Shown here: positions 29,877 through 46,923 of the stretch, piece by piece
How positions within the stretch are numbered: position 1 is the stretch's first letter
Layout of the letters: each line of letters begins with the position of its first letter
Source of the DNA: an uncultured virus (IMG/VR IMGVR_UViG_2061766007_000968)
Taxonomy: Duplodnaviria; Heunggongvirae; Uroviricota; Caudoviricetes
DNA length: 64,000 nucleotides
IMG/VR virus record: IMGVR_UViG_2061766007_000968
Location: 1-64,000 of that record
Reading direction: 5' to 3' (one strand)
Position numbers and translations under genes: made by a program
The notes under the pieces: model-generated
Databases searched by the model: none
What the model was told of the DNA's origin: nothing
What the model saw: only the letters and a program-made list of their open reading frames with translations

Positions 29877-30224
29877 ATGACAAGAAAGAGCATCAAAGTG
29901 AAGGAGGTTCGCTCCGGTCTGACCAGAATTTTCCGCTCTCCGAGGGAGGCGGCGTATTTTATAGGGGTGACCGACGGGGCGATCCGGTACGCCGTGCAGA
30001 ACTCGAGCATCTGTCGCGGGTGGCTGGTCGAGGAAGTCCCGACCGTATATGTCGTGAGGATGAAGGATGATGGGAACTATTATGTGTGCGAGAAGACCGA
30101 GGGCGGCGGAGGGTTCGATATGCTCGGAGAGGACGGCGGGTACTTGCAGGAGAGCGATGTCGCCGAGGTATGGGATGTGACCGAGAATTTCAATAGAGTC
30201 AGAAATGGGAAGAATGAAAAATGA
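29877..30224 (+). CDS. Hypothetical protein with NUMOD1-like HTH
   Basis: FRSPREAAYFIGV...IRYA; TATATTTG at 29863-29870 just upstream. Confidence 0.65.
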   Translation: MTRKSIKVKEVRSGLTRIFRSPREAAYFIGVTDGAIRYAVQNSSICRGWLVEEVPTVYVVRMKDDGNYYVCEKTEGGGGFDMLGEDGGYLQESDVAEVWDVTENFNRVRNGKNEK

Positions 30225-30528
30225 CAGGCCAATCGAGTTCTTCGTCGTCGCGAAGGAAGCCGATAGCGGGAGAGAGGTCTGGTTTAGGACGGCCCACCTG
30301 CAAGGGTTCTCGAAGAAGACTCTTGCGGAGGCGTTTGCGACGGGGAAGGTTGTTTCTGGATATTGCTGGCGGAAGGTGCCGGTGCGCTATCGGCTCGTCA
30401 CGGAGTTCGGGCAGATGTTCGACGCGAGATGGGACGCCGGAAGAAAGGCGTTCGTGACGGAGGACGGGCTGCTGGTCGGTAGGAAATGGTGCAAGGAAAT
30501 AGAAGAATATGCCGATGTTCAGGGTTGA
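30205..30528 (+). CDS. Hypothetical protein
   Basis: About 107 aa, overlapping its neighbours. Confidence 0.55.
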   Translation: MGRMKNDRPIEFFVVAKEADSGREVWFRTAHLQGFSKKTLAEAFATGKVVSGYCWRKVPVRYRLVTEFGQMFDARWDAGRKAFVTEDGLLVGRKWCKEIEEYADVQG

Positions 30529-31000
30529 GCGCCCCGAGAGGCGCAAGCAGATACCGGGATATGGCGGTCGTTACGAGGTTAGCGACCTGGGGAGGGTGTA
30601 CTCGGGCGGGTTCGAGTTGAGCGTGGTTGGCGGAAGGTATGTGAACCTGAGCTGGAAGGGAGCGGTAGAGCGGGTTTCGGTGAGTTATTTGGTGGCGAGG
30701 GCGTTCCTGCCGAATCTGGAGATGCGGCCGTACGTGCGGCACAGGAACGGGGATGTCTCGGACAACCGGGTGGAGAACTTGGAGTGGTGCGAGGTGAAGG
30801 AGAGGTGCGGTGCGAAAGCCGGGAGGAAGGAGATCGGGAAGGCGGTGGTCGCGTATGATGTGGAGAGCGGGGAGTTCGTCGGAAGGTGGAGGAGCGTGAA
30901 AGAGGCGTCGGAAGCGCTCGGTGTGGCACGGTCTTTGATTAGGAACTGCGCCGAGGGGAGGGCGAAGCGGGCGAAGCAGTGGATATTCAGGTATGCTTAA
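30509..31000 (+). CDS. NUMOD4-HNH-NUMOD1 endonuclease-like protein
   Basis: IPGYGGRYEVSDLGRV, LVARAFLPN..VRHRNGD.SDNRVENLEW, SVKEASEALG. Confidence 0.8.
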   Translation: MPMFRVERPERRKQIPGYGGRYEVSDLGRVYSGGFELSVVGGRYVNLSWKGAVERVSVSYLVARAFLPNLEMRPYVRHRNGDVSDNRVENLEWCEVKERCGAKAGRKEIGKAVVAYDVESGEFVGRWRSVKEASEALGVARSLIRNCAEGRAKRAKQWIFRYA

Positions 31001-31184
31001 TTACAAGGTAAGGAGATATGCCGGCTCGGAAGTGAGCGTGGAGAGCGCGAAGGAGATGTGCGTCGATGCTCTGAAGGAGATGTTGTGGCGTGAGGTCTGG
31101 AGGGATGAAATCGACCTGGAGGGGGTTCGGTGGACTGTCAGGGAGTGTGAGGACGGTATTGTAGAGATAACTGCAGAGATATGA
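30993..31184 (+). CDS. Hypothetical protein
   Basis: 63 aa, coupled. Confidence 0.55.
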   Translation: MLNYKVRRYAGSEVSVESAKEMCVDALKEMLWREVWRDEIDLEGVRWTVRECEDGIVEITAEI

Positions 31185-31188
31185 AGAT

Positions 31189-31626
31189 ATGGTAGTAAAA
31201 GTGAAGAAACTGGTGCCGGGCGCGGCGTTGCCGAAGAAGGCGCATGCGACAGACGCAGGGTATGACCTGGTGGCGGTGAGTGGCGGATGGGTCGAGGAAG
31301 AAAGATTGTATGTGTACCACACCGGGCTGGCGTTTGAGATCCCGGAAGGGTATGTCGGGCTGGTGTTCCCGAGGAGCAGTGTGGCGAAGAAGGACTTGAT
31401 TCTGTCGAACTGCGTGGGTGTGATTGACGCGGGGTATCGCGGAGAGGTAACCGCGAAGTTCGGGCTTGCGCAAAGACCGTTGATGAGTGGAGATTTGATT
31501 TATCACGCTGGTGACCGGATTGCCCAGATCGTGTTCGTGAAGCTGCCGGATGTGCAGCTGGTGGAGAGCGAGGAGCTGGGAGAGAGCGAGAGGGGTACAG
31601 GGGGTTATGGAAGCAGCGGGAGGTAG
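31189..31626 (+). CDS. dut: Trimeric dUTPase
   Basis: DAGYDL, PRSS, GVIDAGYRGE, RIAQ, ERG.GGYGSSG motifs. Confidence 0.95.
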   Translation: MVVKVKKLVPGAALPKKAHATDAGYDLVAVSGGWVEEERLYVYHTGLAFEIPEGYVGLVFPRSSVAKKDLILSNCVGVIDAGYRGEVTAKFGLAQRPLMSGDLIYHAGDRIAQIVFVKLPDVQLVESEELGESERGTGGYGSSGR

Positions 31627-31630
31627 CGGT

Positions 31631-32170
31631 ATGGTGAAGATAGAAACTTTGGAGATCGCCGGGTTTGTAAGCGCGTTCAAGGCGCTTCGGCTGAGTTATG
31701 GGAAGGAGGAGCGGAGCAGGTCGCAGGTGGATTTCCGCGAGGTCGGTGACGGTGGCGCGGAGGAATATTGGGCTTTTGATGCGGACCCGCGGGATATGGA
31801 GTTGCTCCAGAAGCTGGTTCGCGCGGGCGATGAGCACGCGAAGGTGCTGAGAGGGGTGGTCGTGTGGGCGAAGGTGACTGCGCCGGTGTACTGGTGGTGC
31901 GAGCAGGAGACCTACCGGGCTGGTCATGAGCGGCTGATGAGCGAGTCGACGATGCACATCGACTGCAAGGGGCTGAGTGGCGAGGAACTGCAGAAGGCTA
32001 AGGCGGAGATTCCTATGGGGAAAGAGCTGACGAAAGTGGATTTCTTCTCGTATCAGTGTCTGAGGAGGATATGGCAGCAGCGGAAGAACCACAGGTTGCC
32101 GGAATGGAGGGAGTTCTGCGAGTGGATCGAGTCGCTGCCGATGGCTGGAGAGTTGATAACCTTAAAATAA
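31631..32170 (+). CDS. Conserved phage protein, possibly ThyX-like fold
   Basis: GDEHAKVLR, APVYWW.E.ETYR, SESTMH, QRKNHRLPEW..FC; adjacent to dut. Confidence 0.55.
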   Translation: MVKIETLEIAGFVSAFKALRLSYGKEERSRSQVDFREVGDGGAEEYWAFDADPRDMELLQKLVRAGDEHAKVLRGVVVWAKVTAPVYWWCEQETYRAGHERLMSESTMHIDCKGLSGEELQKAKAEIPMGKELTKVDFFSYQCLRRIWQQRKNHRLPEWREFCEWIESLPMAGELITLK

Positions 32171-32177
32171 TGTAGAA

Positions 32178-32432
32178 ATGGAGATTAAGTTTCAGATTTG
32201 TGACAAGGTGTTTTATTTCAACACCGCAGAGTGCAGGGTGATGAGCGCCGAGGTCAAGGGTATTCAGGTTGTTCCGACCGGAATCAGCAAGGATGAGAAC
32301 GGAGAGAATGTGCTGGACGGTGTCGTCGTGCTGTATCAGACTTTTGACGGCCCGGTTCTGTCGGAGGCTGAGTGCTTCCGGAGCGAGGCGGAGTGCCTGG
32401 CTTGGTATAAGGAGTATTTCGAGAAGAAATAG
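32178..32432 (+). CDS. Hypothetical SH3-like protein
   Basis: KFQICDKVFY start; 84 aa. Confidence 0.65.
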   Translation: MEIKFQICDKVFYFNTAECRVMSAEVKGIQVVPTGISKDENGENVLDGVVVLYQTFDGPVLSEAECFRSEAECLAWYKEYFEKK

Positions 32433-32611
32433 GGTCGCGGCGCGTGAAGGCGGCGGTCCCCGACCGTGGACGGCGTCTAGGGTAGGTTCGCAATATGGGG
32501 TCGTCGTATCCCGGACTTTTTGTTACGGCGTCTCCGGATGAAAGCGGGCGCAGCATAAAGACATATCCGCAATTGCGAGCAACGGTTGGCAGCCGGGAAA
32601 GACCGGCGAAT

Positions 32612-32694
32612 GGGGGAGACCGCGCGTACATGGAGGTCCGACGGGAACAGGCCAAAATATCGGACTACTGCGGGTTCGAGTCCCGCCTCCCCCG
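32612..32694 (+). ncRNA. tRNA-like element lacking a D-stem and a normal anticodon loop
   Basis: Acceptor GGGGGAG/CTCCCCC, T-arm GCGGG-TTCGAGT-CCCGC, 7-bp helix with an 18-nt loop. Confidence 0.6.
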
Positions 32695-32717
32695 CTTGGA
32701 AATTAGAAATGTTTTCG

Positions 32718-32828
32718 TAACTTTGTAGTCCGCGCTTTGGGTACGGCGCGAATAGAGAGATTTGGGCAGAGTGTTCGGGGATGTACCCTCCTTTCTTCGG
32801 AAAGGCCCCCGGACGCTCTGCCTTTTTG
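32718..32828 (+). promoter_or_regulatory. Promoter plus structured, attenuator-like leader of the helicase gene
   Basis: TAACTTTG; hairpin with GGGTAC loop; long stem gggcagagtgttc/ggacgctctgcct with a U-tract; internal C(TTCG)G hairpin. Confidence 0.55.
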
Positions 32829-32846
32829 ACTCAAAAACCGCAAGTT

Positions 32847-34307
32847 TTGTCAAAGAATAATGATGTCATAGACTACCTGGAGTCGGTTCTCGAGCCGGAA
32901 TTAAACGGCAAGGGCGCGACGGACAACAAGGTGGACAAACTGAAGGAGGCCGAGATCTGCGATGCGTTCGATTCGTACATCTGCGGGCGTCCGGATGATC
33001 AGGGATGCGACTTTTTCAAGGTCGCTGAGGGTGATGTCATGTATATGTTCAACGGCAAGTGGTACGAGAAGATAGACGATGTGCGGTTGAGGTATGTGGT
33101 GAAGGAGGTGATGCGGAGGGTGCATGTCGGGGTGGTCTACATACGGAATTCTGCGGAAAAGGTTGCCAAGGAGTGCAAGGAATCGCTACTTTCATGCGAA
33201 TGGTGCAAATTTGAGCCGGACAGACGGTATGTGGTGTTCAAAAACGGGGTGCTGGATGTCGAGCGGAAGGGTTTCTACGAGCATAATATCAAGTACAAGA
33301 CGGACATTGTCTTGAATTTCAACTATATGTCGAGCGAGCGGAGCGCGTTATGGGACAGGGTAATCCAGCAAACCGTTCCGGATGACGGTATGCGGAGCGC
33401 GATGCAGCAGTTCTGCGGTGCAATGTTGGCTGATAGGAAGAAGTTCAAGATCGAGTATATGCTCATGATGGTCGGATCTGGACGGAACGGAAAGTCAGTT
33501 GTGACAGATGCCATCGCGGGCGTGTTCGGGGACGATCTTGTGAGTTCGTACAGCCCCGAGCAGCTCTTCGGGAGCAGCAGTCACAGCCTTTATAACCTCG
33601 CGGACATCAACGGCAAACTCGCGAACATCTGCGATGATTTGAAGAACAAGGATTTCTCCGGCGGTGAGTTCAAGCAGTTCATCTCCGGCCATAAGTTCCA
33701 GGCCCGCCATATCTATGGCCGGCCTTTTGTTGTGTCCAAGATCCCTCTGATGGTCTGCTGTATGAACGAAATTCCGCCGACTACGGATGACACGATGGGT
33801 CATTATCGGCGGTTACTGCCGGTCTTGTGCCCGAACCAGGTTGCTGAAAAGGATGTGGATTACGAACTTCCTGTCAAATTGGCGACGGAGGAGAACAAGG
33901 CGGCCATCTTCAATTGGCTTCTTGAGGGTTATAAGGAATTCGTTGCGAACAAGGGAAGAATTGATGTCAGCGACAGCATTAAGAGCATTCGCGAGGAAAT
34001 CAAGGCGGACGCCAACTCGGCGCGTCGGTGGATTCGAGAGATGGGTTATAGGCCGATCAGCGCTCCGGACAAGACCGACCCGAGCTGGAAGCCCATCAAT
34101 GAGTGGATGAAGATTTACATCGAGTGGTGCAAGGAATGCTCCGAGAACCCGAAGACCGCGAAGGCTGTCGGGACGGTCTTGAGAGACCTCGGGTTCGCGA
34201 GCGAAAAGCGCCGCAGCACCACCTGGTACTGCATAGGCTCTCCAGAAGAGGAGAAGCCGGCGTATAGTTTCTTTGGGACTGACGATAATACGGACGCTCC
34301 GTTCTAG
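32847..34307 (+). CDS. P4/D5-family SF3 helicase (primase-associated)
   Basis: FKNGVLD, GSGRNGKS Walker A, FKQFISG, MNEIP..DDT.G.YRRL; probable TTG start at 32847 because the ATG at 32781 lies inside the leader structure. Confidence 0.9.
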   Translation: MSKNNDVIDYLESVLEPELNGKGATDNKVDKLKEAEICDAFDSYICGRPDDQGCDFFKVAEGDVMYMFNGKWYEKIDDVRLRYVVKEVMRRVHVGVVYIRNSAEKVAKECKESLLSCEWCKFEPDRRYVVFKNGVLDVERKGFYEHNIKYKTDIVLNFNYMSSERSALWDRVIQQTVPDDGMRSAMQQFCGAMLADRKKFKIEYMLMMVGSGRNGKSVVTDAIAGVFGDDLVSSYSPEQLFGSSSHSLYNLADINGKLANICDDLKNKDFSGGEFKQFISGHKFQARHIYGRPFVVSKIPLMVCCMNEIPPTTDDTMGHYRRLLPVLCPNQVAEKDVDYELPVKLATEENKAAIFNWLLEGYKEFVANKGRIDVSDSIKSIREEIKADANSARRWIREMGYRPISAPDKTDPSWKPINEWMKIYIEWCKECSENPKTAKAVGTVLRDLGFASEKRRSTTWYCIGSPEEEKPAYSFFGTDDNTDAPF

Positions 34308-39640: not shown

Positions 39641-39908
39641 ATACGCAGAATATGTTCTTGTCCCGAAAGAAGGGCTGTCCGGCATAGAGCCTGGTGCATA
39701 TGAAACGGCAGACGGGAAGACCTGTTTCGCCACATTCATTGCAGGCTGGGATAATCGAGACGGAGTGTACGACGAACAACTCGACCATATCTGTCAAAAG
39801 AGATGGAATTTGCCTTTTTCCTACATCAAGTCTCTTTGGATGGAGAGGTGTTGGGAGATTGAGGGGTATTGGTACTTATTGAATTTAAGGCTTAGTGTAA
39901 CAGGGTAA
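39621..39908 (+). CDS. Hypothetical protein
   Basis: 95 aa. Confidence 0.55.
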   Translation: MNTIKAKYAEYVLVPKEGLSGIEPGAYETADGKTCFATFIAGWDNRDGVYDEQLDHICQKRWNLPFSYIKSLWMERCWEIEGYWYLLNLRLSVTG

Positions 39909-39972
39909 TGGACCGGCCTAAACAACATACCGCTATAATGGCGGAGATCCCGTGAAAGCCGGGGGCCTTTCT

Positions 39973-40071
39973 GGATGGGTACCTCAGATGGTTAGAGGTC
40001 GGGAGGTGGCGAAATTGTGCTGAAATAAGCTCAGCCTTCCGAAGTCGCAGGTTCGAGTCCTGTCCCATCCG
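39973..40071 (+). ncRNA. tRNA-like RNA with an extended anticodon arm
   Basis: Acceptor GGATGGG/CCCATCC, D-arm CCTC-AGATGGTTA-GAGG, T-arm GCAGG-TTCGAGT-CCTGT; 32 nt where a 7-nt anticodon loop belongs. Confidence 0.75.
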
Positions 40072-40100
40072 CGAAATTTGTTTATATCGTAAATTCTTCT

Positions 40101-40210
40101 TATCTTTGCATAAACATTGTGTCGCAGACAATGAGTAGAAATTTAACACCCAGGACGAGTAGTGCAGAGCTGCGACCTCTGCGTGAAAGTTCTGGGATTG
40201 TTTTATAGAG
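40101..40210 (+). promoter_or_regulatory. Promoter plus kissing-loop leader, copy B
   Basis: TATCTTTG; loops GTCGCAG (40121-27) and CTGCGAC (40170-76); AGTAG/TGAA. Confidence 0.8.
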
Positions 40211-40801
40211 ATGGAAGAAATTTGGAAACCAATTGAAGGCTATGAAGGGAGATATGAGGCCGGAAATCTTGGGAACATAAAGAGCCTTAATTACCTTAAC
40301 ACTGGTATGGAAAAGGTAATGAAACCTTATTTGGTTGTGAGTAAGCACGGGAATGTCCCATATCTACAGGTCGATCTCTTTAAAAACGGCATAAGGCGTT
40401 CTCTCAAGGTACATGTTCTTGTATGTTCTGCATTTCATGGCGCACGGCCATCCGATATTGACGGAGACGATCATGTGGAAGCAATGCATTTGAACGGAAA
40501 TTCGTTAGACAACCGCGCGGTTAATCTCGCATGGGGAAGGCACATTGATAATGTCCGCGAGAAGAATTTTGTGGTAAAGCAAGTGGCGGCACAAAAGAAA
40601 AGATGGGAGAACGGAGAGTATGATTACCAAAAGAAGCCAGTAATGCAGTTTACTTTGGAAGGTGTTTTTGTTGCAAAATATGAGTCCGCATCATCCGCTC
40701 AAAGAGAGACGGGATGCAATCAAAGTGATATATCTAAACAGTGTCGCGGAGTAAGAAGATGGCCCGTTGGTGGCTTTAATTGGAAATTTGCTGATAAATA
40801 A
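40211..40801 (+). CDS. NUMOD4-HNH homing endonuclease
   Basis: EEIWKPIEGYEGRYE, VHVLV..AFHG, HLNGNSLDNRAVNLAW. Confidence 0.9.
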   Translation: MEEIWKPIEGYEGRYEAGNLGNIKSLNYLNTGMEKVMKPYLVVSKHGNVPYLQVDLFKNGIRRSLKVHVLVCSAFHGARPSDIDGDDHVEAMHLNGNSLDNRAVNLAWGRHIDNVREKNFVVKQVAAQKKRWENGEYDYQKKPVMQFTLEGVFVAKYESASSAQRETGCNQSDISKQCRGVRRWPVGGFNWKFADK

Positions 40802-42300: not shown

Positions 42301-42307
42301 TTCTTCT

Positions 42308-42421
42308 TATCTTTGCATACACACTCGTGTTGCAGACGAGGAAGAGAAATATAAGAGCCCCGAATGAGTAGGAAGGTGCTGCAACCACCTTTTGAAAATT
42401 CGGGGATTCGTTTTTTTTGAT
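42308..42421 (+). promoter_or_regulatory. Promoter plus kissing-loop leader, copy C
   Basis: TATCTTTG; loops GTTGCAG (42329-35) and CTGCAAC (42379-85); AGTAG/TGAA. Confidence 0.8.
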
Positions 42422-44343: not shown

Positions 44344-44739
44344 ATGATTATAGAAACTCCAGAGCAGCCGAAAAAGCGCCGGCATTCGCAGCCGGAAATG
44401 AAACTCCAGGCTGAATGCTTTCGCATGGCGTGGAACGATTTTCCTATTACAAGAAAACTTCTTTTTCATGTTGAAAACGAACTGAATTTTGCCGGGGACA
44501 ATTCCATTCGCGGGGCGATTCGCAGATCAGAAGGGATTGTAAAGGGCGTGTCTGACTTGATTCTGCTTATACCACGCCGGGACTGGCACGGTCTAATGAT
44601 CGAACTTAAAACAGAGGATGGCCGGCAGTCACTTGCCCAGAAAGAATGGCAGTCACTTGTCGAGGCGCAGGGATACCGTTACGAAATAATCCGAACTTTG
44701 GATGATTTTCGATCTCTTCTCTGGGATTATCTCGGATAA
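44344..44739 (+). CDS. VRR-NUC nuclease
   Basis: E..LQ, EG..KGVSDL, IELK...GRQS..Q..W. Confidence 0.85.
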   Translation: MIIETPEQPKKRRHSQPEMKLQAECFRMAWNDFPITRKLLFHVENELNFAGDNSIRGAIRRSEGIVKGVSDLILLIPRRDWHGLMIELKTEDGRQSLAQKEWQSLVEAQGYRYEIIRTLDDFRSLLWDYLG

Positions 44740-44757
44740 ATTCTTATCTTTGTCATT

Positions 44758-45369
44758 ATGCCTGGGATTTTACCGATGCGCCCGAAATCGGGCAAATTTG
44801 ACCTCAGACCGGAAGAGATGGATGGTCTGTCGTATTATGTTTTGTCTGGATGTCCCCGTGAGGTAGCATTTCTCAAGTTTATGCGACCAGACTTTATTGG
44901 TTCAAAAGCCCAGACGGTCATCAAGAATGCCGTGTCGCAATTCTTTGCGATGAAGGATGTGAAGGATTACTTGGACGCATATAGGGCAACCATAGAAGAA
45001 TTATTGAGCCCATCTAAAAGGGAGGACAAACCCAGCGGCACTCTTGAGGAGCGGAAGGCGAGGGCAAAGACGAAGATAGTCGAGTTCGCAATGGAGTTGG
45101 CGGACAATATAGAAAACGCAAGTGACAAGGAGTTCGTTTTAAAGATGGCAGACAAGGCCGGACTTCTCGACCAGGAAGAACAGGTCGAAGAGCAGCCTAG
45201 GAGGTATCTCCCTGTAAGCTGCCAGTCCGGGTGCGCGTATAGGATGTTCTGCGAGGAGAGCGCCGATGATATGTGTCAATACTGCAAGTATCACGCATTC
45301 GGAGAGGAGAATGGGGTTCACTTCGAAAAAACAGAAATTCTCGATGTTCCTATTGCTAATTCGGAATAA
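44758..45369 (+). CDS. Hypothetical protein, possible terminase small subunit
   Basis: Helical HTH-like N-terminus and Cys-rich tail (RYLP..C..C.Y); upstream of the large terminase. Confidence 0.45.
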   Translation: MPGILPMRPKSGKFDLRPEEMDGLSYYVLSGCPREVAFLKFMRPDFIGSKAQTVIKNAVSQFFAMKDVKDYLDAYRATIEELLSPSKREDKPSGTLEERKARAKTKIVEFAMELADNIENASDKEFVLKMADKAGLLDQEEQVEEQPRRYLPVSCQSGCAYRMFCEESADDMCQYCKYHAFGEENGVHFEKTEILDVPIANSE

Positions 45370-46718: not shown

Positions 46719-46824
46719 GGAGGAACGGCCCGGTTGGTCTGGGCGAGAAGCGGATGGTGAAATCTGTCGTGTTGCAAGCACGCAGTCCGCGAGACAGGCG
46801 GGGGTCCGATTCCCCCTTCCTCTG
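46719..46824 (+). ncRNA. tRNA-like RNA with an extended anticodon arm
   Basis: Acceptor GGAGGAA/TTCCTCT, D-arm GCCC-GGTTGGTCT-GGGC, T-arm GGGGG-TCCGATT-CCCCC; long bulged central arm. Confidence 0.65.
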
Positions 46825-46923
46825 CTAACCGCAGGGATGCGCTACGGGCGAAATAATGAGTGAAAGCTTTTTTTTTCGAACATAATTTATCCTCCCCGGG
46901 CTGCCCGACCGGGGATTTGTAAT

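What the first reader, a model, noticed from the sequence alone, without database searches (positions are those of the whole stretch)
39973..40071. tRNA scaffold with an elongated, bulged anticodon arm (copy 1)
Acceptor, D and T arms are canonical. The anticodon arm instead reads CGGGAG / bulge GTGGCGAAATTGT / GCTGA-AATAAGC-TCAGC / CTTCCG, which is 25 nt longer than normal, and no CCA is encoded. It is far too short for a group I intron. It lies 30 nt upstream of leader B. Inference: a tRNA-framed functional RNA (decoy or protein-binding aptamer) and not a decoding tRNA.
Basis: partly seen in the sequence, partly recalled or inferred. Interest (0 to 1): 0.75.

Follow-up and report, generated by a model that had tools for sequence, protein, structure and literature searches.

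The report
Phage tRNA-shaped RNA with rod arm
This is a phage gene for an RNA that keeps the body of a transfer RNA but has a conserved bulged hairpin where the decoding loop should be, so it almost certainly does a job other than reading codons; that job is not yet known.

Summary
Window 39973-40071 (+) has a canonical acceptor stem, D arm and T arm, a 42-nt "anticodon" arm and no encoded CCA. Only the inner pairing register needs correcting.

It is not a decoding or intron-bearing tRNA. ARAGORN finds it only in intron mode, and calls it Leu(CAG) here but Ala(GGC) in two homologues. The one loop that would give U33 loses U33 in every homologue.

It is a real, selected RNA:
- In 8 related elements, 10 of 19 frame pairs show compensatory changes.
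- The same insert recurs in 2 other contigs and 2 run contigs. Its outer stem and 8-nt bulge never vary there, and its tip hairpin changes only in ways that keep or improve pairing.
- A near-identical relative lacks exactly this element.

The window holds three tRNA-like elements and related phages hold 1-3 (one has none below E 1e-3). All 12 are intergenic. They often sit behind a hairpin plus U-run and 5-26 nt before a start codon, and twice beside true tRNAs.

Best reading (confidence 0.45): host tRNA-end enzymes cut out a T4 RNAC-like small RNA, which also punctuates the mRNA, and the rod tip is a specific recognition module. Nothing shows expression.

This scan has noted similar tRNA-framed phage RNAs on other DNA.

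The parts
39973..40071 (+). tRNA-like element copy 1 (whole, including discriminator G at 40071)
   Evidence: Sequence. Fold gives -39.1 kcal/mol, z -3.0. Model R1 scores 102.3 bits, but this copy was in the seed alignment. Homologues.
39973..39979 (+). Acceptor stem, 5' strand. It pairs with 40064-40070.
   Evidence: 7 bp. In the 8-sequence alignment, 5 of 7 acceptor pairs change on both sides.
39982..39998 (+). D arm CCTC-AGATGGTTA-GAGG
   Evidence: Invariant stem in 8 of 8 sequences. The same D-arm word occurs in 65 viral loci. At least 10 of these carry a normal loop CUUAUAA, the tRNA-Ile(UAU) type.
40000..40007 (+). Outer stem of the rod, 5' strand (CGGGAGGU). It pairs with 40034-40041 (GCCUUCCG).
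   Evidence: 8 of 8 pairs are invariant in 3 aligned homologues. No difference is listed there in two further run contigs.
40008..40015 (+). One-sided 8-nt bulge GGCGAAAU
   Evidence: Unpaired in the MFE fold. Invariant in W, L052 and L215, and no difference is listed in X20 or X6 contigs.
40016..40033 (+). Tip hairpin UGUGCU-GAAAUA-AGCUCA
   Evidence: Pair 40018/40031 goes from U.U to C-G in L052, L215, X20 and X6. Pair 40017/40032 goes from G-C to A-U in X6. Pair 40019/40030 goes from G-C to G.U in L215. Loop base 40026 goes from U to C in L215.
40034..40041 (+). Outer stem of the rod, 3' strand
40047..40063 (+). T arm GCAGG-TTCGAGT-CCTGT
   Evidence: 2 of 5 pairs change on both sides and 1 changes on one side.
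40064..40070 (+). Acceptor stem, 3' strand
39886..39970 (+). Motif X: a conserved structured element ending in GCCUUUCU, directly 5' of the tRNA-like element
   Evidence: 93% identical in L011 and 82% in L053, where it lies 3' of a tRNA-like element. Folded.
40077..40108 (+). Promoter-like TTTG, 20 nt, TATCTTTG, just after the element
   Evidence: Read. TATCTTTG is conserved at the head of 5 of 7 leader B copies. That this matches a Bacteroidota promoter consensus is recalled, not tested.
40097..40210 (+). Leader B, the structured 5' leader of the HNH endonuclease gene 40211-40801
   Evidence: 7 copies aligned. 8 of 22 predicted pairs have compensatory changes. HNH assignment.
32612..32694 (+). 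Second tRNA-like element (copy 2), upstream of the primase-like gene 32781-34307
   Evidence: R1 scores 24.9 bits, E 4.4e-4.
46719..46825 (+). Third tRNA-like element, upstream of the packaging module
   Evidence: R1 scores 29.2 bits, E 2.8e-5. Fold. A positional homologue lies in L013.

Best explanation
The element is a cassette encoding a non-decoding, tRNA-shaped small RNA. A frame of phage tRNA-Ile type keeps every feature of the L-shaped upper body. The anticodon arm is replaced by a conserved 42-nt bulged rod.

Proposed mechanism:
1. It is transcribed as part of the replication-gene transcript.
2. It is cut out by the host enzymes that mature tRNA ends (RNase P at G39973; RNase Z or trimming plus CCA addition after G40071).
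3. The cut leaves the upstream mRNA ending in a hairpin plus U-run.
4. In relatives, the cut leaves the downstream mRNA starting a few bases before its start codon.
5. The cut also frees a stable RNA whose rod tip is a type-specific recognition module for a partner that is still unknown.

Shown: the anatomy, selection on frame and insert, the intergenic position, and presence/absence as a unit. Inferred: transcription, processing, stability and the existence of a partner.
For: 1. The frame is under RNA-level selection. It is 98% paired, 10 of 19 pairs have compensatory changes, and 0 of 500 shuffles reach the observed score. G.U pairs fit only this strand.

2. The insert is conserved. W, L052 and L215 sit in unrelated flanks (before an HNH gene plus helicase, before a small ORF plus helicase, and before a primase-like gene). 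All three share the rod. All 8 outer-stem pairs and the bulge are invariant, while the frame differs at 5 sites (L052) and 11 sites (L215), by my count on the alignment. Run contigs add a G-C to A-U swap and a U.U to C-G change in the tip hairpin.

3. A second insert type (L004, L053, L129) keeps a 27-nt tip core with one covarying pair, while its basal stem is unalignable.

4. The element behaves as a unit. L011 and one run contig are 77-93% alike in the flanks but lack just the element.

5. Context. All 12 of 12 model hits in six phage records are intergenic. In 6 of them the next gene starts 5-26 nt away. The helicase ATG lies 5 nt after the discriminator in L129 and in the X20 contig. In 8 of 14 elements, G1 is preceded by a hairpin plus U-run.

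6. Neighbours. One relative's element lies between tRNA-Met and tRNA-Gln. The L215 copy lies 30 nt before a tRNA-Ser. This fits shared tRNA-type processing.

7. A precedent exists. T4 RNAC has a tRNA-type T arm and long rods.
Against: - There is no evidence of transcription, processing or stability. No RNA run holds the region.
- In this window the element is not next to a start codon. A promoter-like site and a 139-nt gap follow it.
- A related phage manages without the element, so any processing role is dispensable.
- Conservation of the insert rests on few sequences: 3 loci plus 2 contigs. It could partly reflect recent spread combined with gene conversion of the frame.
- Rod tips across the wider family are very diverse, and some are plain GNRA-type caps. 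This fits "any stable cap will do" as well as it fits specific partners.
- No partner or target was found.
Confidence: 0.45

Rival explanations
1. Its main role is as a trans-acting decoy or sponge. The tRNA body draws a host tRNA-binding factor, such as a tRNA-targeting defence nuclease or a modification or charging enzyme. The rod removes the cleavable or decodable loop, or adds specificity.
For: The intact upper body with the anticodon loop abolished is the common theme of the wider family: 33 of 65 loci with this D-arm word have complete frames of 78-139 nt with rod arms. The window has three such elements and no canonical tRNA. Insert types turn over between close relatives at one genomic site, as expected in an arms race.
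Against: No defence or counter-defence gene was linked to it. No host is known. Conserved, type-specific tips are not needed for a plain decoy. Nothing tests binding.
Confidence: 0.2
2. It is a selfish or decaying tRNA-derived cassette: a former phage tRNA-Ile gene disabled by an insertion. It spreads by recombination or with homing-endonuclease cassettes and serves no function for the phage.
For: Presence/absence is precise between near-identical relatives. The same cassette occurs at different sites, before the helicase and before the primase. HNH cassettes lie next to it. The bases after the discriminator read CGA, CAA, CGC or CCA, like a drifting CCA.
Against: Compensatory substitutions keep every stem. 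The tertiary-contact bases are kept. The insert is at least as conserved as the frame. These patterns mean selection on the folded RNA, although a selfish element could itself need the fold.
Confidence: 0.15
3. It is a cis-acting leader. The tRNA-like fold just upstream of replication genes is an operator bound by a tRNA-binding or phage protein, which sets translation or stability of the downstream gene without being cut out.
For: Start codons lie 5-26 nt after the element in 6 of 12 cases. The elements stand before primase, helicase and packaging genes.
Against: In this window a promoter-like site and another gene's leader lie between the element and the helicase gene. Elements also occur inside tRNA clusters. 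A bulky fold 5 nt from the AUG would more likely block initiation unless it is removed (inference).
Confidence: 0.1
4. It is a decoding tRNA whose 23-25-nt insert is an intron removed after transcription.
For: ARAGORN in intron mode can model it as tRNA-Leu(CAG) with a 25-nt intron and loop CUCAGCC.
Against: The same program calls the homologues Ala(GGC) with a different intron. The CUCAGCC loop becomes CGCAGCC or UGCAGCC in homologues, so U33 is lost. A Leu tRNA should have a long variable arm, and this one has 5 nt. The insert is far too short for a group I intron and has no bulge-helix-bulge motif (read). Contigs covering the element all keep the insert (their run kind is unknown).
Confidence: 0.04
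5. It acts at the DNA level, as a recombination boundary, homing-endonuclease target or origin element, not as RNA.
For: It lies at module boundaries beside homing endonuclease genes. Shared frame words could serve as recombination sites.
Against: Stems are kept through G.U pairs, which would be A.C mismatches on the other strand, and through compensatory changes. This points to a single-stranded RNA of this strand.
Confidence: 0.05

Closest known systems
Bacteriophage T4 RNAC and RNAD (species 1 and 2 small stable RNAs of the T4 tRNA region)
   Same: Both are phage-encoded. RNAC has a tRNA-type T arm (CCGGG-UUCGAAU-CCCGG) near its 3' end and long hairpins where the D and anticodon arms would be. 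Its role is still unknown (passages seen in PMC3014915 and PMC9697503). Relatives of the present element also sit among tRNA genes.
   Different: There is no sequence relation: R1 gives only 15.7 bits on RNAC, while T4's true tRNAs score 10-36 bits. The present element keeps a full canonical D arm and has a single rod. In this window it lies outside any tRNA cluster, between protein genes. The host is probably Bacteroidales, not Escherichia.
Phage-encoded tRNA-Ile(UAU)
   Same: The same D-arm word (TACCTCAG..GGTTAGAGG) and the same overall frame. At least 10 of 65 viral loci with this word have a normal arm with loop CUUAUAA.
   Different: The present element has no anticodon loop, its discriminator is G, and its arm is 42 nt long.
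tRNA punctuation of mitochondrial transcripts and the MALAT1-mascRNA module (RNase P makes the 3' end of the upstream RNA and frees a tRNA-like small RNA). Recalled; PMC11144196 and bioRxiv 10.64898/2026.01.19.700226 were seen as search-listing abstracts only.
   Same: It works alike if the inference holds: a tRNA-like fold inside a longer transcript, a stabilising structure just 5' of the cut, and a small tRNA-like RNA as by-product.
   Different: Processing is not shown here. The setting is a bacterial virus. The tRNA-like RNA carries a large conserved rod.
P1/P7 C4 and P4 CI antisense RNAs, cut from longer transcripts by RNase P (recalled, not read here)
   Same: Phage regulatory RNAs matured by RNase P out of an operon transcript.
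   Different: Those act by base pairing to nearby targets. No complementary target was found here: the longest match was 10 nt, at the level of shuffled controls.
Decoding tRNAs with elongated anticodon stems (tRNA-Pyl, mitochondrial tRNA-Ser(UCN))
   Same: The anticodon stem is longer than 5 bp.
   Different: Those have 6 bp and a normal loop (passages of PMC7609411). This element has about 14 pairs, an 8-nt bulge and a 6-nt loop.

Membership tests
Canonical decoding tRNA (Rfam RF00005) | 7-bp acceptor stem, D arm with G18G19, T arm with the T-loop, U8 | tested here: met
   Read. Covariation.
Canonical decoding tRNA (Rfam RF00005) | 5-bp anticodon stem with a 7-nt loop, U33 and a purine at position 37 | tested here: not met
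   The arm is a 42-nt bulged rod with a 6-nt loop. The only 7-nt reading has C37 and loses U33 in homologues.
Canonical decoding tRNA (Rfam RF00005) | Detected by standard tRNA finders at their thresholds | tested here: not met
   Default ARAGORN finds 0 genes. No Rfam gathering-score match. Homologues L052 and L053 pass at 45 bits only by skipping the insert. tRNAscan-SE was not available.
Intron-containing tRNA (group I or bulge-helix-bulge intron) | A group I intron of roughly 200 nt or more with a catalytic core, or a bulge-helix-bulge motif at the exon-intron joints | tested here: not met
   The insert is 23-25 nt. The bulge is one-sided and 8 nt. No intron family appears in Rfam at E up to 10.
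Intron-containing tRNA (group I or bulge-helix-bulge intron) | The same anticodon and intron position in homologues | tested here: not met
   Leu(CAG) in the window against Ala(GGC) in L052 and L215.
T4 RNAC-type phage small stable RNA (a loosely defined kind) | tRNA-type acceptor and T arm with non-tRNA hairpins in between | tested here: met
T4 RNAC-type phage small stable RNA (a loosely defined kind) | Encoded among tRNA genes and co-processed with them | tested here: inconclusive
   Not so in this window, which has no tRNA genes. True for a relative's element in G005 and for the L215 copy.
T4 RNAC-type phage small stable RNA (a loosely defined kind) | Accumulates as a discrete stable RNA | not testable with these tools
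   No RNA run holds the region.
tmRNA | tRNA-Ala-like ends with a tag reading frame | tested here: not met
   ARAGORN in tmRNA mode finds none in six phage records. There is no G3.U70.
Bacterial Y RNA (YrlA-type tRNA mimic) | RNA ends lie in the long protein-binding stem, the acceptor-like stem is closed by a loop, and a Ro60 gene lies nearby | tested here: not met
   Here the ends are at the acceptor stem. No Rfam match. No TROVE domain among the 61 ORFs scanned. The architecture of YrlA is recalled.

The most novel reading that the evidence does not exclude
Phages of Bacteroidales-type hosts carry a modular RNA platform. A tRNA-Ile-derived body guarantees excision and stability through the host's own tRNA-end enzymes. 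In the place of the anticodon arm, swappable type-specific hairpins are displayed as ligands or decoys for host or phage proteins. The same cut also shapes the ends of the neighbouring replication mRNAs. This would be a natural bacterial-virus counterpart of both the MALAT1-mascRNA module and laboratory "tRNA scaffold" aptamers.
Probability: 0.25. Interest if true: 0.8.

Novelty: new variant of a known kind. Interest (0 to 1): 0.6.

Why it matters
Phage small RNAs built on tRNA frames have been known since T4 RNAC and RNAD, but no function has been assigned (passages). This family gives a cleaner entry point:
- The frame is fully canonical.
- The foreign part is one short rod with a handful of conserved unpaired bases.
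- There are natural with/without pairs of phages.
- The elements stand at fixed points in front of primase, helicase and packaging genes.

If processing by RNase P and RNase Z is confirmed, it would show tRNA-style punctuation of mRNAs in a bacterial virus. If the rods bind partners, it would reveal a natural aptamer-display system. In practical terms, such genes are missed by default tRNA finders and mislabelled as intron-bearing tRNAs in intron mode.

Tried and rejected
- **Antisense target.** The longest match of the insert or its complement elsewhere in the window was 10 nt. Shuffled inserts mostly give 10-11. A 9-nt complement 250 nt upstream has no counterpart in L052. One search timed out and was rerun.
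- **Known RNA families.** No gathering-score match in the window. Only weak tRNA-Sec, RAGATH-35 and ceN65 matches near the element. Only tRNA matches in 5 related loci.
- **Theta/HDV-like ribozyme idea for motif X.** Passages of PMC10879173 were read. I could draw no HDV-like pairing by eye, and Rfam gave nothing. Left open.
- **GenBank phages.** Nothing beyond short HNH matches for the 5-kb region, and none for the element. The nearest cultured relative by terminase is Parabacteroides phage PF672P1, at 39% identity. It has no R1 match.
- **Exact-word scans.** The first viral scan found nothing because of one variable base. The metagenome scan returned 58 loci, of which 57 were chance matches without a tRNA frame and 1 (L215) was real.
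- **Expression.** No RNA holder is listed. The four runs laid are contigs of unknown kind. They gave variants and one deletion form but no information on RNA ends or splicing.
- **Host.** The genome-contig scan with the terminase gave a single 3-kb contig of a metagenome bin, which is not reliable.
- **Ideas considered and not pursued.** GGAGG-type Shine-Dalgarno mimicry: this phage rarely uses such motifs, with 11 of 54 starts having even a loose 4-mer. Likeness of the tip hairpin to lambdoid boxB, and of the type-B loop to the 16S rRNA 3' end. Both of these are recalled likenesses and were not tested.
- **Literature.** Six searches found no description of this family. Supplements were not consulted.

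Full report
**Observation**

Window 39973-40071 (+) reads, in order:
- GGATGGG, TA
- CCTC-AGATGGTTA-GAGG, T
- a 42-nt arm
- AAGTC
- GCAGG-TTCGAGT-CCTGT
- CCCATCC, G, then CGA.

The acceptor stem, D arm and T arm are canonical. So are the bases that hold the tRNA corner together: U8, G18G19, G15 with C48, and the T-loop. No CCA is encoded. On its own the RNA folds to -39.1 kcal/mol (z -3.0; 3 of 200 shuffles fold as well).

Standard detectors do not report it:
- Default ARAGORN finds no tRNA in the window.
- No Rfam family reaches its gathering score.
- The best local Rfam match is tRNA-Sec at 22.4 bits, E 0.11.

The genome is a 67-kb viral record. It encodes a tail tape measure, terminase, portal, primase-like and helicase genes and several HNH endonucleases.

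**Not a decoding or intron-bearing tRNA**

- ARAGORN models the element only when introns are allowed. It then calls tRNA-Leu(CAG) with a 25-nt intron and loop CUCAGCC.
- For the two homologues with the same insert it calls tRNA-Ala(GGC) with a different 23-nt intron.
- In those homologues the supposed loop reads CGCAGCC or UGCAGCC, so U33 is lost.
- A Leu tRNA should have a long variable arm. This one has 5 nt.
- The insert is far too short for a group I intron and has no bulge-helix-bulge anatomy.
- Known decoding tRNAs with long anticodon stems have only 6 bp (passages of PMC7609411).

**The frame is a selected RNA fold**

Relatives were found through the helicase (15 close loci) and through frame words. 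On eight elements sharing the D arm (alignment A4), the stems I specified give the following:
- 98.0% of cells are paired.
- 10 of 19 pairs change on both sides.
- The covariation score is 0.462, against 0.160 in shuffles (0 of 500 reach it) and at most 0.126 when partners are slid.
- G.U pairs occur in the stems, which fits an RNA of this strand.

Rfam's own tRNA model scores homologues L052 and L053 at 45.0 and 44.5 bits by skipping the insert.

**The insert is conserved**

The same insert (type A) occurs in two further loci:
- L052, a viral contig, where it stands before a 64-aa ORF and the helicase.
- L215, a metagenome contig that appears to be the same record as viral locus L319. There it stands before a primase-like ORF and 30 nt before a canonical tRNA-Ser(UGA), and CCA is encoded.

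The flanks of the three copies are unrelated.

By my count on the alignment, the frame differs from the window copy at 5 sites in L052 and 11 sites in L215, nearly all of them keeping a pair. In the same alignment all 8 outer-stem pairs and the 8-nt bulge GGCGAAAU are invariant.

The tip hairpin changes only in ways that keep or improve pairing:
- U.U to C-G at 40018/40031.
- G-C to G.U at 40019/40030.
- In one run contig, G-C to A-U at 40017/40032.
- The loop varies at one base.

A second insert type (L004, L053, L129) behaves the same way. A 27-nt tip core is invariant except for one covarying pair, while the basal part of the rod cannot be aligned between L004 and L129. Scans for either tip sequence found it only inside these tRNA frames.

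The sample is small: three loci and two contigs for type A. Gene conversion of frame segments between paralogous elements could inflate the contrast between frame and insert.

**A family, and a unit**

At the same place upstream of the helicase, relatives carry the same kind of frame with quite different central parts of 10 to about 85 nt.

A covariance model of the frame (R1) gives these counts at E below 1e-3:

| Record | Hits |
|---|---|
| Window | 3 (39973, 46719, 32612) |
| G001 | 3 |
| G002 | 2 |
| G003 | 1 |
| G004 | 0 (one hit at E 0.046) |
| G005 | 3 |

As a control, R1 also scores true T4 tRNAs at 10-36 bits. Hits below about 45 bits therefore mean "tRNA-like frame", not membership of this subfamily.

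In the wider viral collection the D-arm word occurs in 65 loci:
- 10 loci have frames of 70-76 nt.
- 33 loci (26 distinct sequences) have complete frames of 78-139 nt with rod-like arms. The rods are capped by varied loops, including UAUA, GCAA, UUAAAAC, GAAAUA and CGGUUGA.
- 22 loci were not resolved by my strict finder.
- At least 10 of the 65 loci carry the loop CUUAUAA, so the frame is of tRNA-Ile(UAU) type.

L011 is 77% identical to the window over the aligned region and 93% in motif X. It lacks about 105 nt that correspond to the element alone. One run contig shows the same gap, with 20 other bases in its place. The element is therefore gained or lost as a unit.

**Context**

- All 12 of 12 model hits are intergenic and lie between genes of the same direction in most cases.
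- The downstream gene begins 5-26 nt after the element in 6 cases and 86-140 nt after it in 5.
- In L129 and in the X20 contig the helicase ATG is 5 nt after the discriminator. In L004 a methylase-like ORF starts 6 nt after it.
- In 8 of 14 elements, G1 is preceded by a hairpin and a U-run. Position -1 is U in 13 of 14.
- In this window the element follows motif X (39886-39970). It is followed by TTTG, 20 nt, TATCTTTG, and then by the structured leader of an HNH gene. That leader has compensatory changes in 8 of 22 pairs across 7 copies.
- Start regions are A-rich and rarely have Shine-Dalgarno-like words: 11 of 54 starts have even a loose 4-mer.
- The nearest cultured phages by terminase infect Parabacteroides and Bacteroides.

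Together these fit a Bacteroidales-type host. The promoter consensus and the initiation rules of that group are recalled, not tested.

**Mechanism**

What is conserved is exactly the part of a tRNA that RNase P, RNase Z and the CCA-adding enzyme read: the acceptor/T helix and the corner. That these enzymes read this part is established knowledge and was not tested here.

Several findings point the same way: placement in operons, U at -1, a hairpin plus U-run on the 5' side, start codons just 3' of the element, and neighbours that are true tRNAs. I therefore infer three things:
- The element is cut out of the transcript.
- The cut gives the upstream mRNA a terminator-like protected end and the downstream mRNA a short leader.
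- A stable tRNA-shaped RNA is released.

The conserved bulge and tip argue that this RNA has a specific partner. What that partner is remains open.

None of transcription, cleavage, stability or binding is shown. No RNA run holds the region.

**Comparison with what is known**

The closest known kind is T4 RNAC/RNAD. RNAC has a tRNA-type T arm and long rods, and its role is unknown. The present element differs in four ways:
- It has a full D arm.
- It has a single rod.
- It lies between protein genes.
- It shows no sequence relation to RNAC.

It would work like mitochondrial tRNA punctuation or the MALAT1-mascRNA module, but that is a likeness of mechanism only.

Six literature searches found no description of this family. 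Earlier notes of this scan report similar tRNA-framed phage RNAs on other DNA.

**Verdict**

- "Not a decoding tRNA" and "functional RNA" are supported.
- "Decoy or aptamer" is open.

I file it as a new variant of a known, poorly understood kind. Interest 0.6.

Noticed in passing
window 40097-40210 and 42304-42414: Leader B is a conserved structured 5' leader that begins with TATCTTTG and stands before HNH endonuclease genes. Across 7 copies in the window and relatives, 8 of 22 predicted pairs have compensatory changes and the loops GCUGCGACC and GAGUAG are conserved. It has no Rfam match. It looks like an RNA motif that travels with the HNH cassette.
   Followed up: partly
window 39886-39970: Motif X is an 85-nt structured element ending in GCCUUU. 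It is 93% identical in L011 and 82% in L053, where it lies after a tRNA-like element instead of before it. One inner hairpin covaries: CCGC..GCGG against CCGG..CCGG. Function unknown. No Rfam match.
   Followed up: partly
L052 1527-1631 (-), L014 3541-3630, L129 511-536, L012 3256-3295: Motif Y is a GC-rich long-range stem (GCCGCCG...CGGCGGC) with a conserved loop (CCCAGGAGUGCACUAA) and a variable inner insertion. It usually lies just 5' of the tRNA-like element. A third hairpin type (GGUGCGG...CCGCACC-GAUUUUU) plays the same positional role in L002, L012 and L015.
   Followed up: no
window 32612-32694 and 46719-46825: Two further tRNA-like elements with non-canonical central parts. One stands before the primase-like gene and one before the packaging genes. 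Copy 2 lacks a proper D stem. The third has the T-loop UCCGAUU.
   Followed up: partly
L054-L133, for example L068 321-433: More than 35 of the first 80 viral loci sharing the T-arm word carry another tRNA-like type of 109-113 nt (ACCCAAG...CTTGGGT-G-CCA). It has a 26-30-nt insert and an inner CUUCAAA or CUUUAAA word. That word resembles the anticodon loop of a UGA- or UAA-reading tRNA. It may relate to the two-armed suppressor tRNAs noted earlier in this scan.
   Followed up: no
window 30001-32000: This 2-kb bin (within the 30001-34000 stretch of raised G+C and GC skew) has unusually high G+C (0.585) and GC skew (+0.41). It lies at the switch from minus-strand to plus-strand genes.
   Followed up: no
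window 44736-44757: The same TTCTTATCTTTG word as at the head of leader B lies 6 nt before the ATG of ORF 44758-45369. If it is a promoter, that mRNA would have almost no leader.
   Followed up: no
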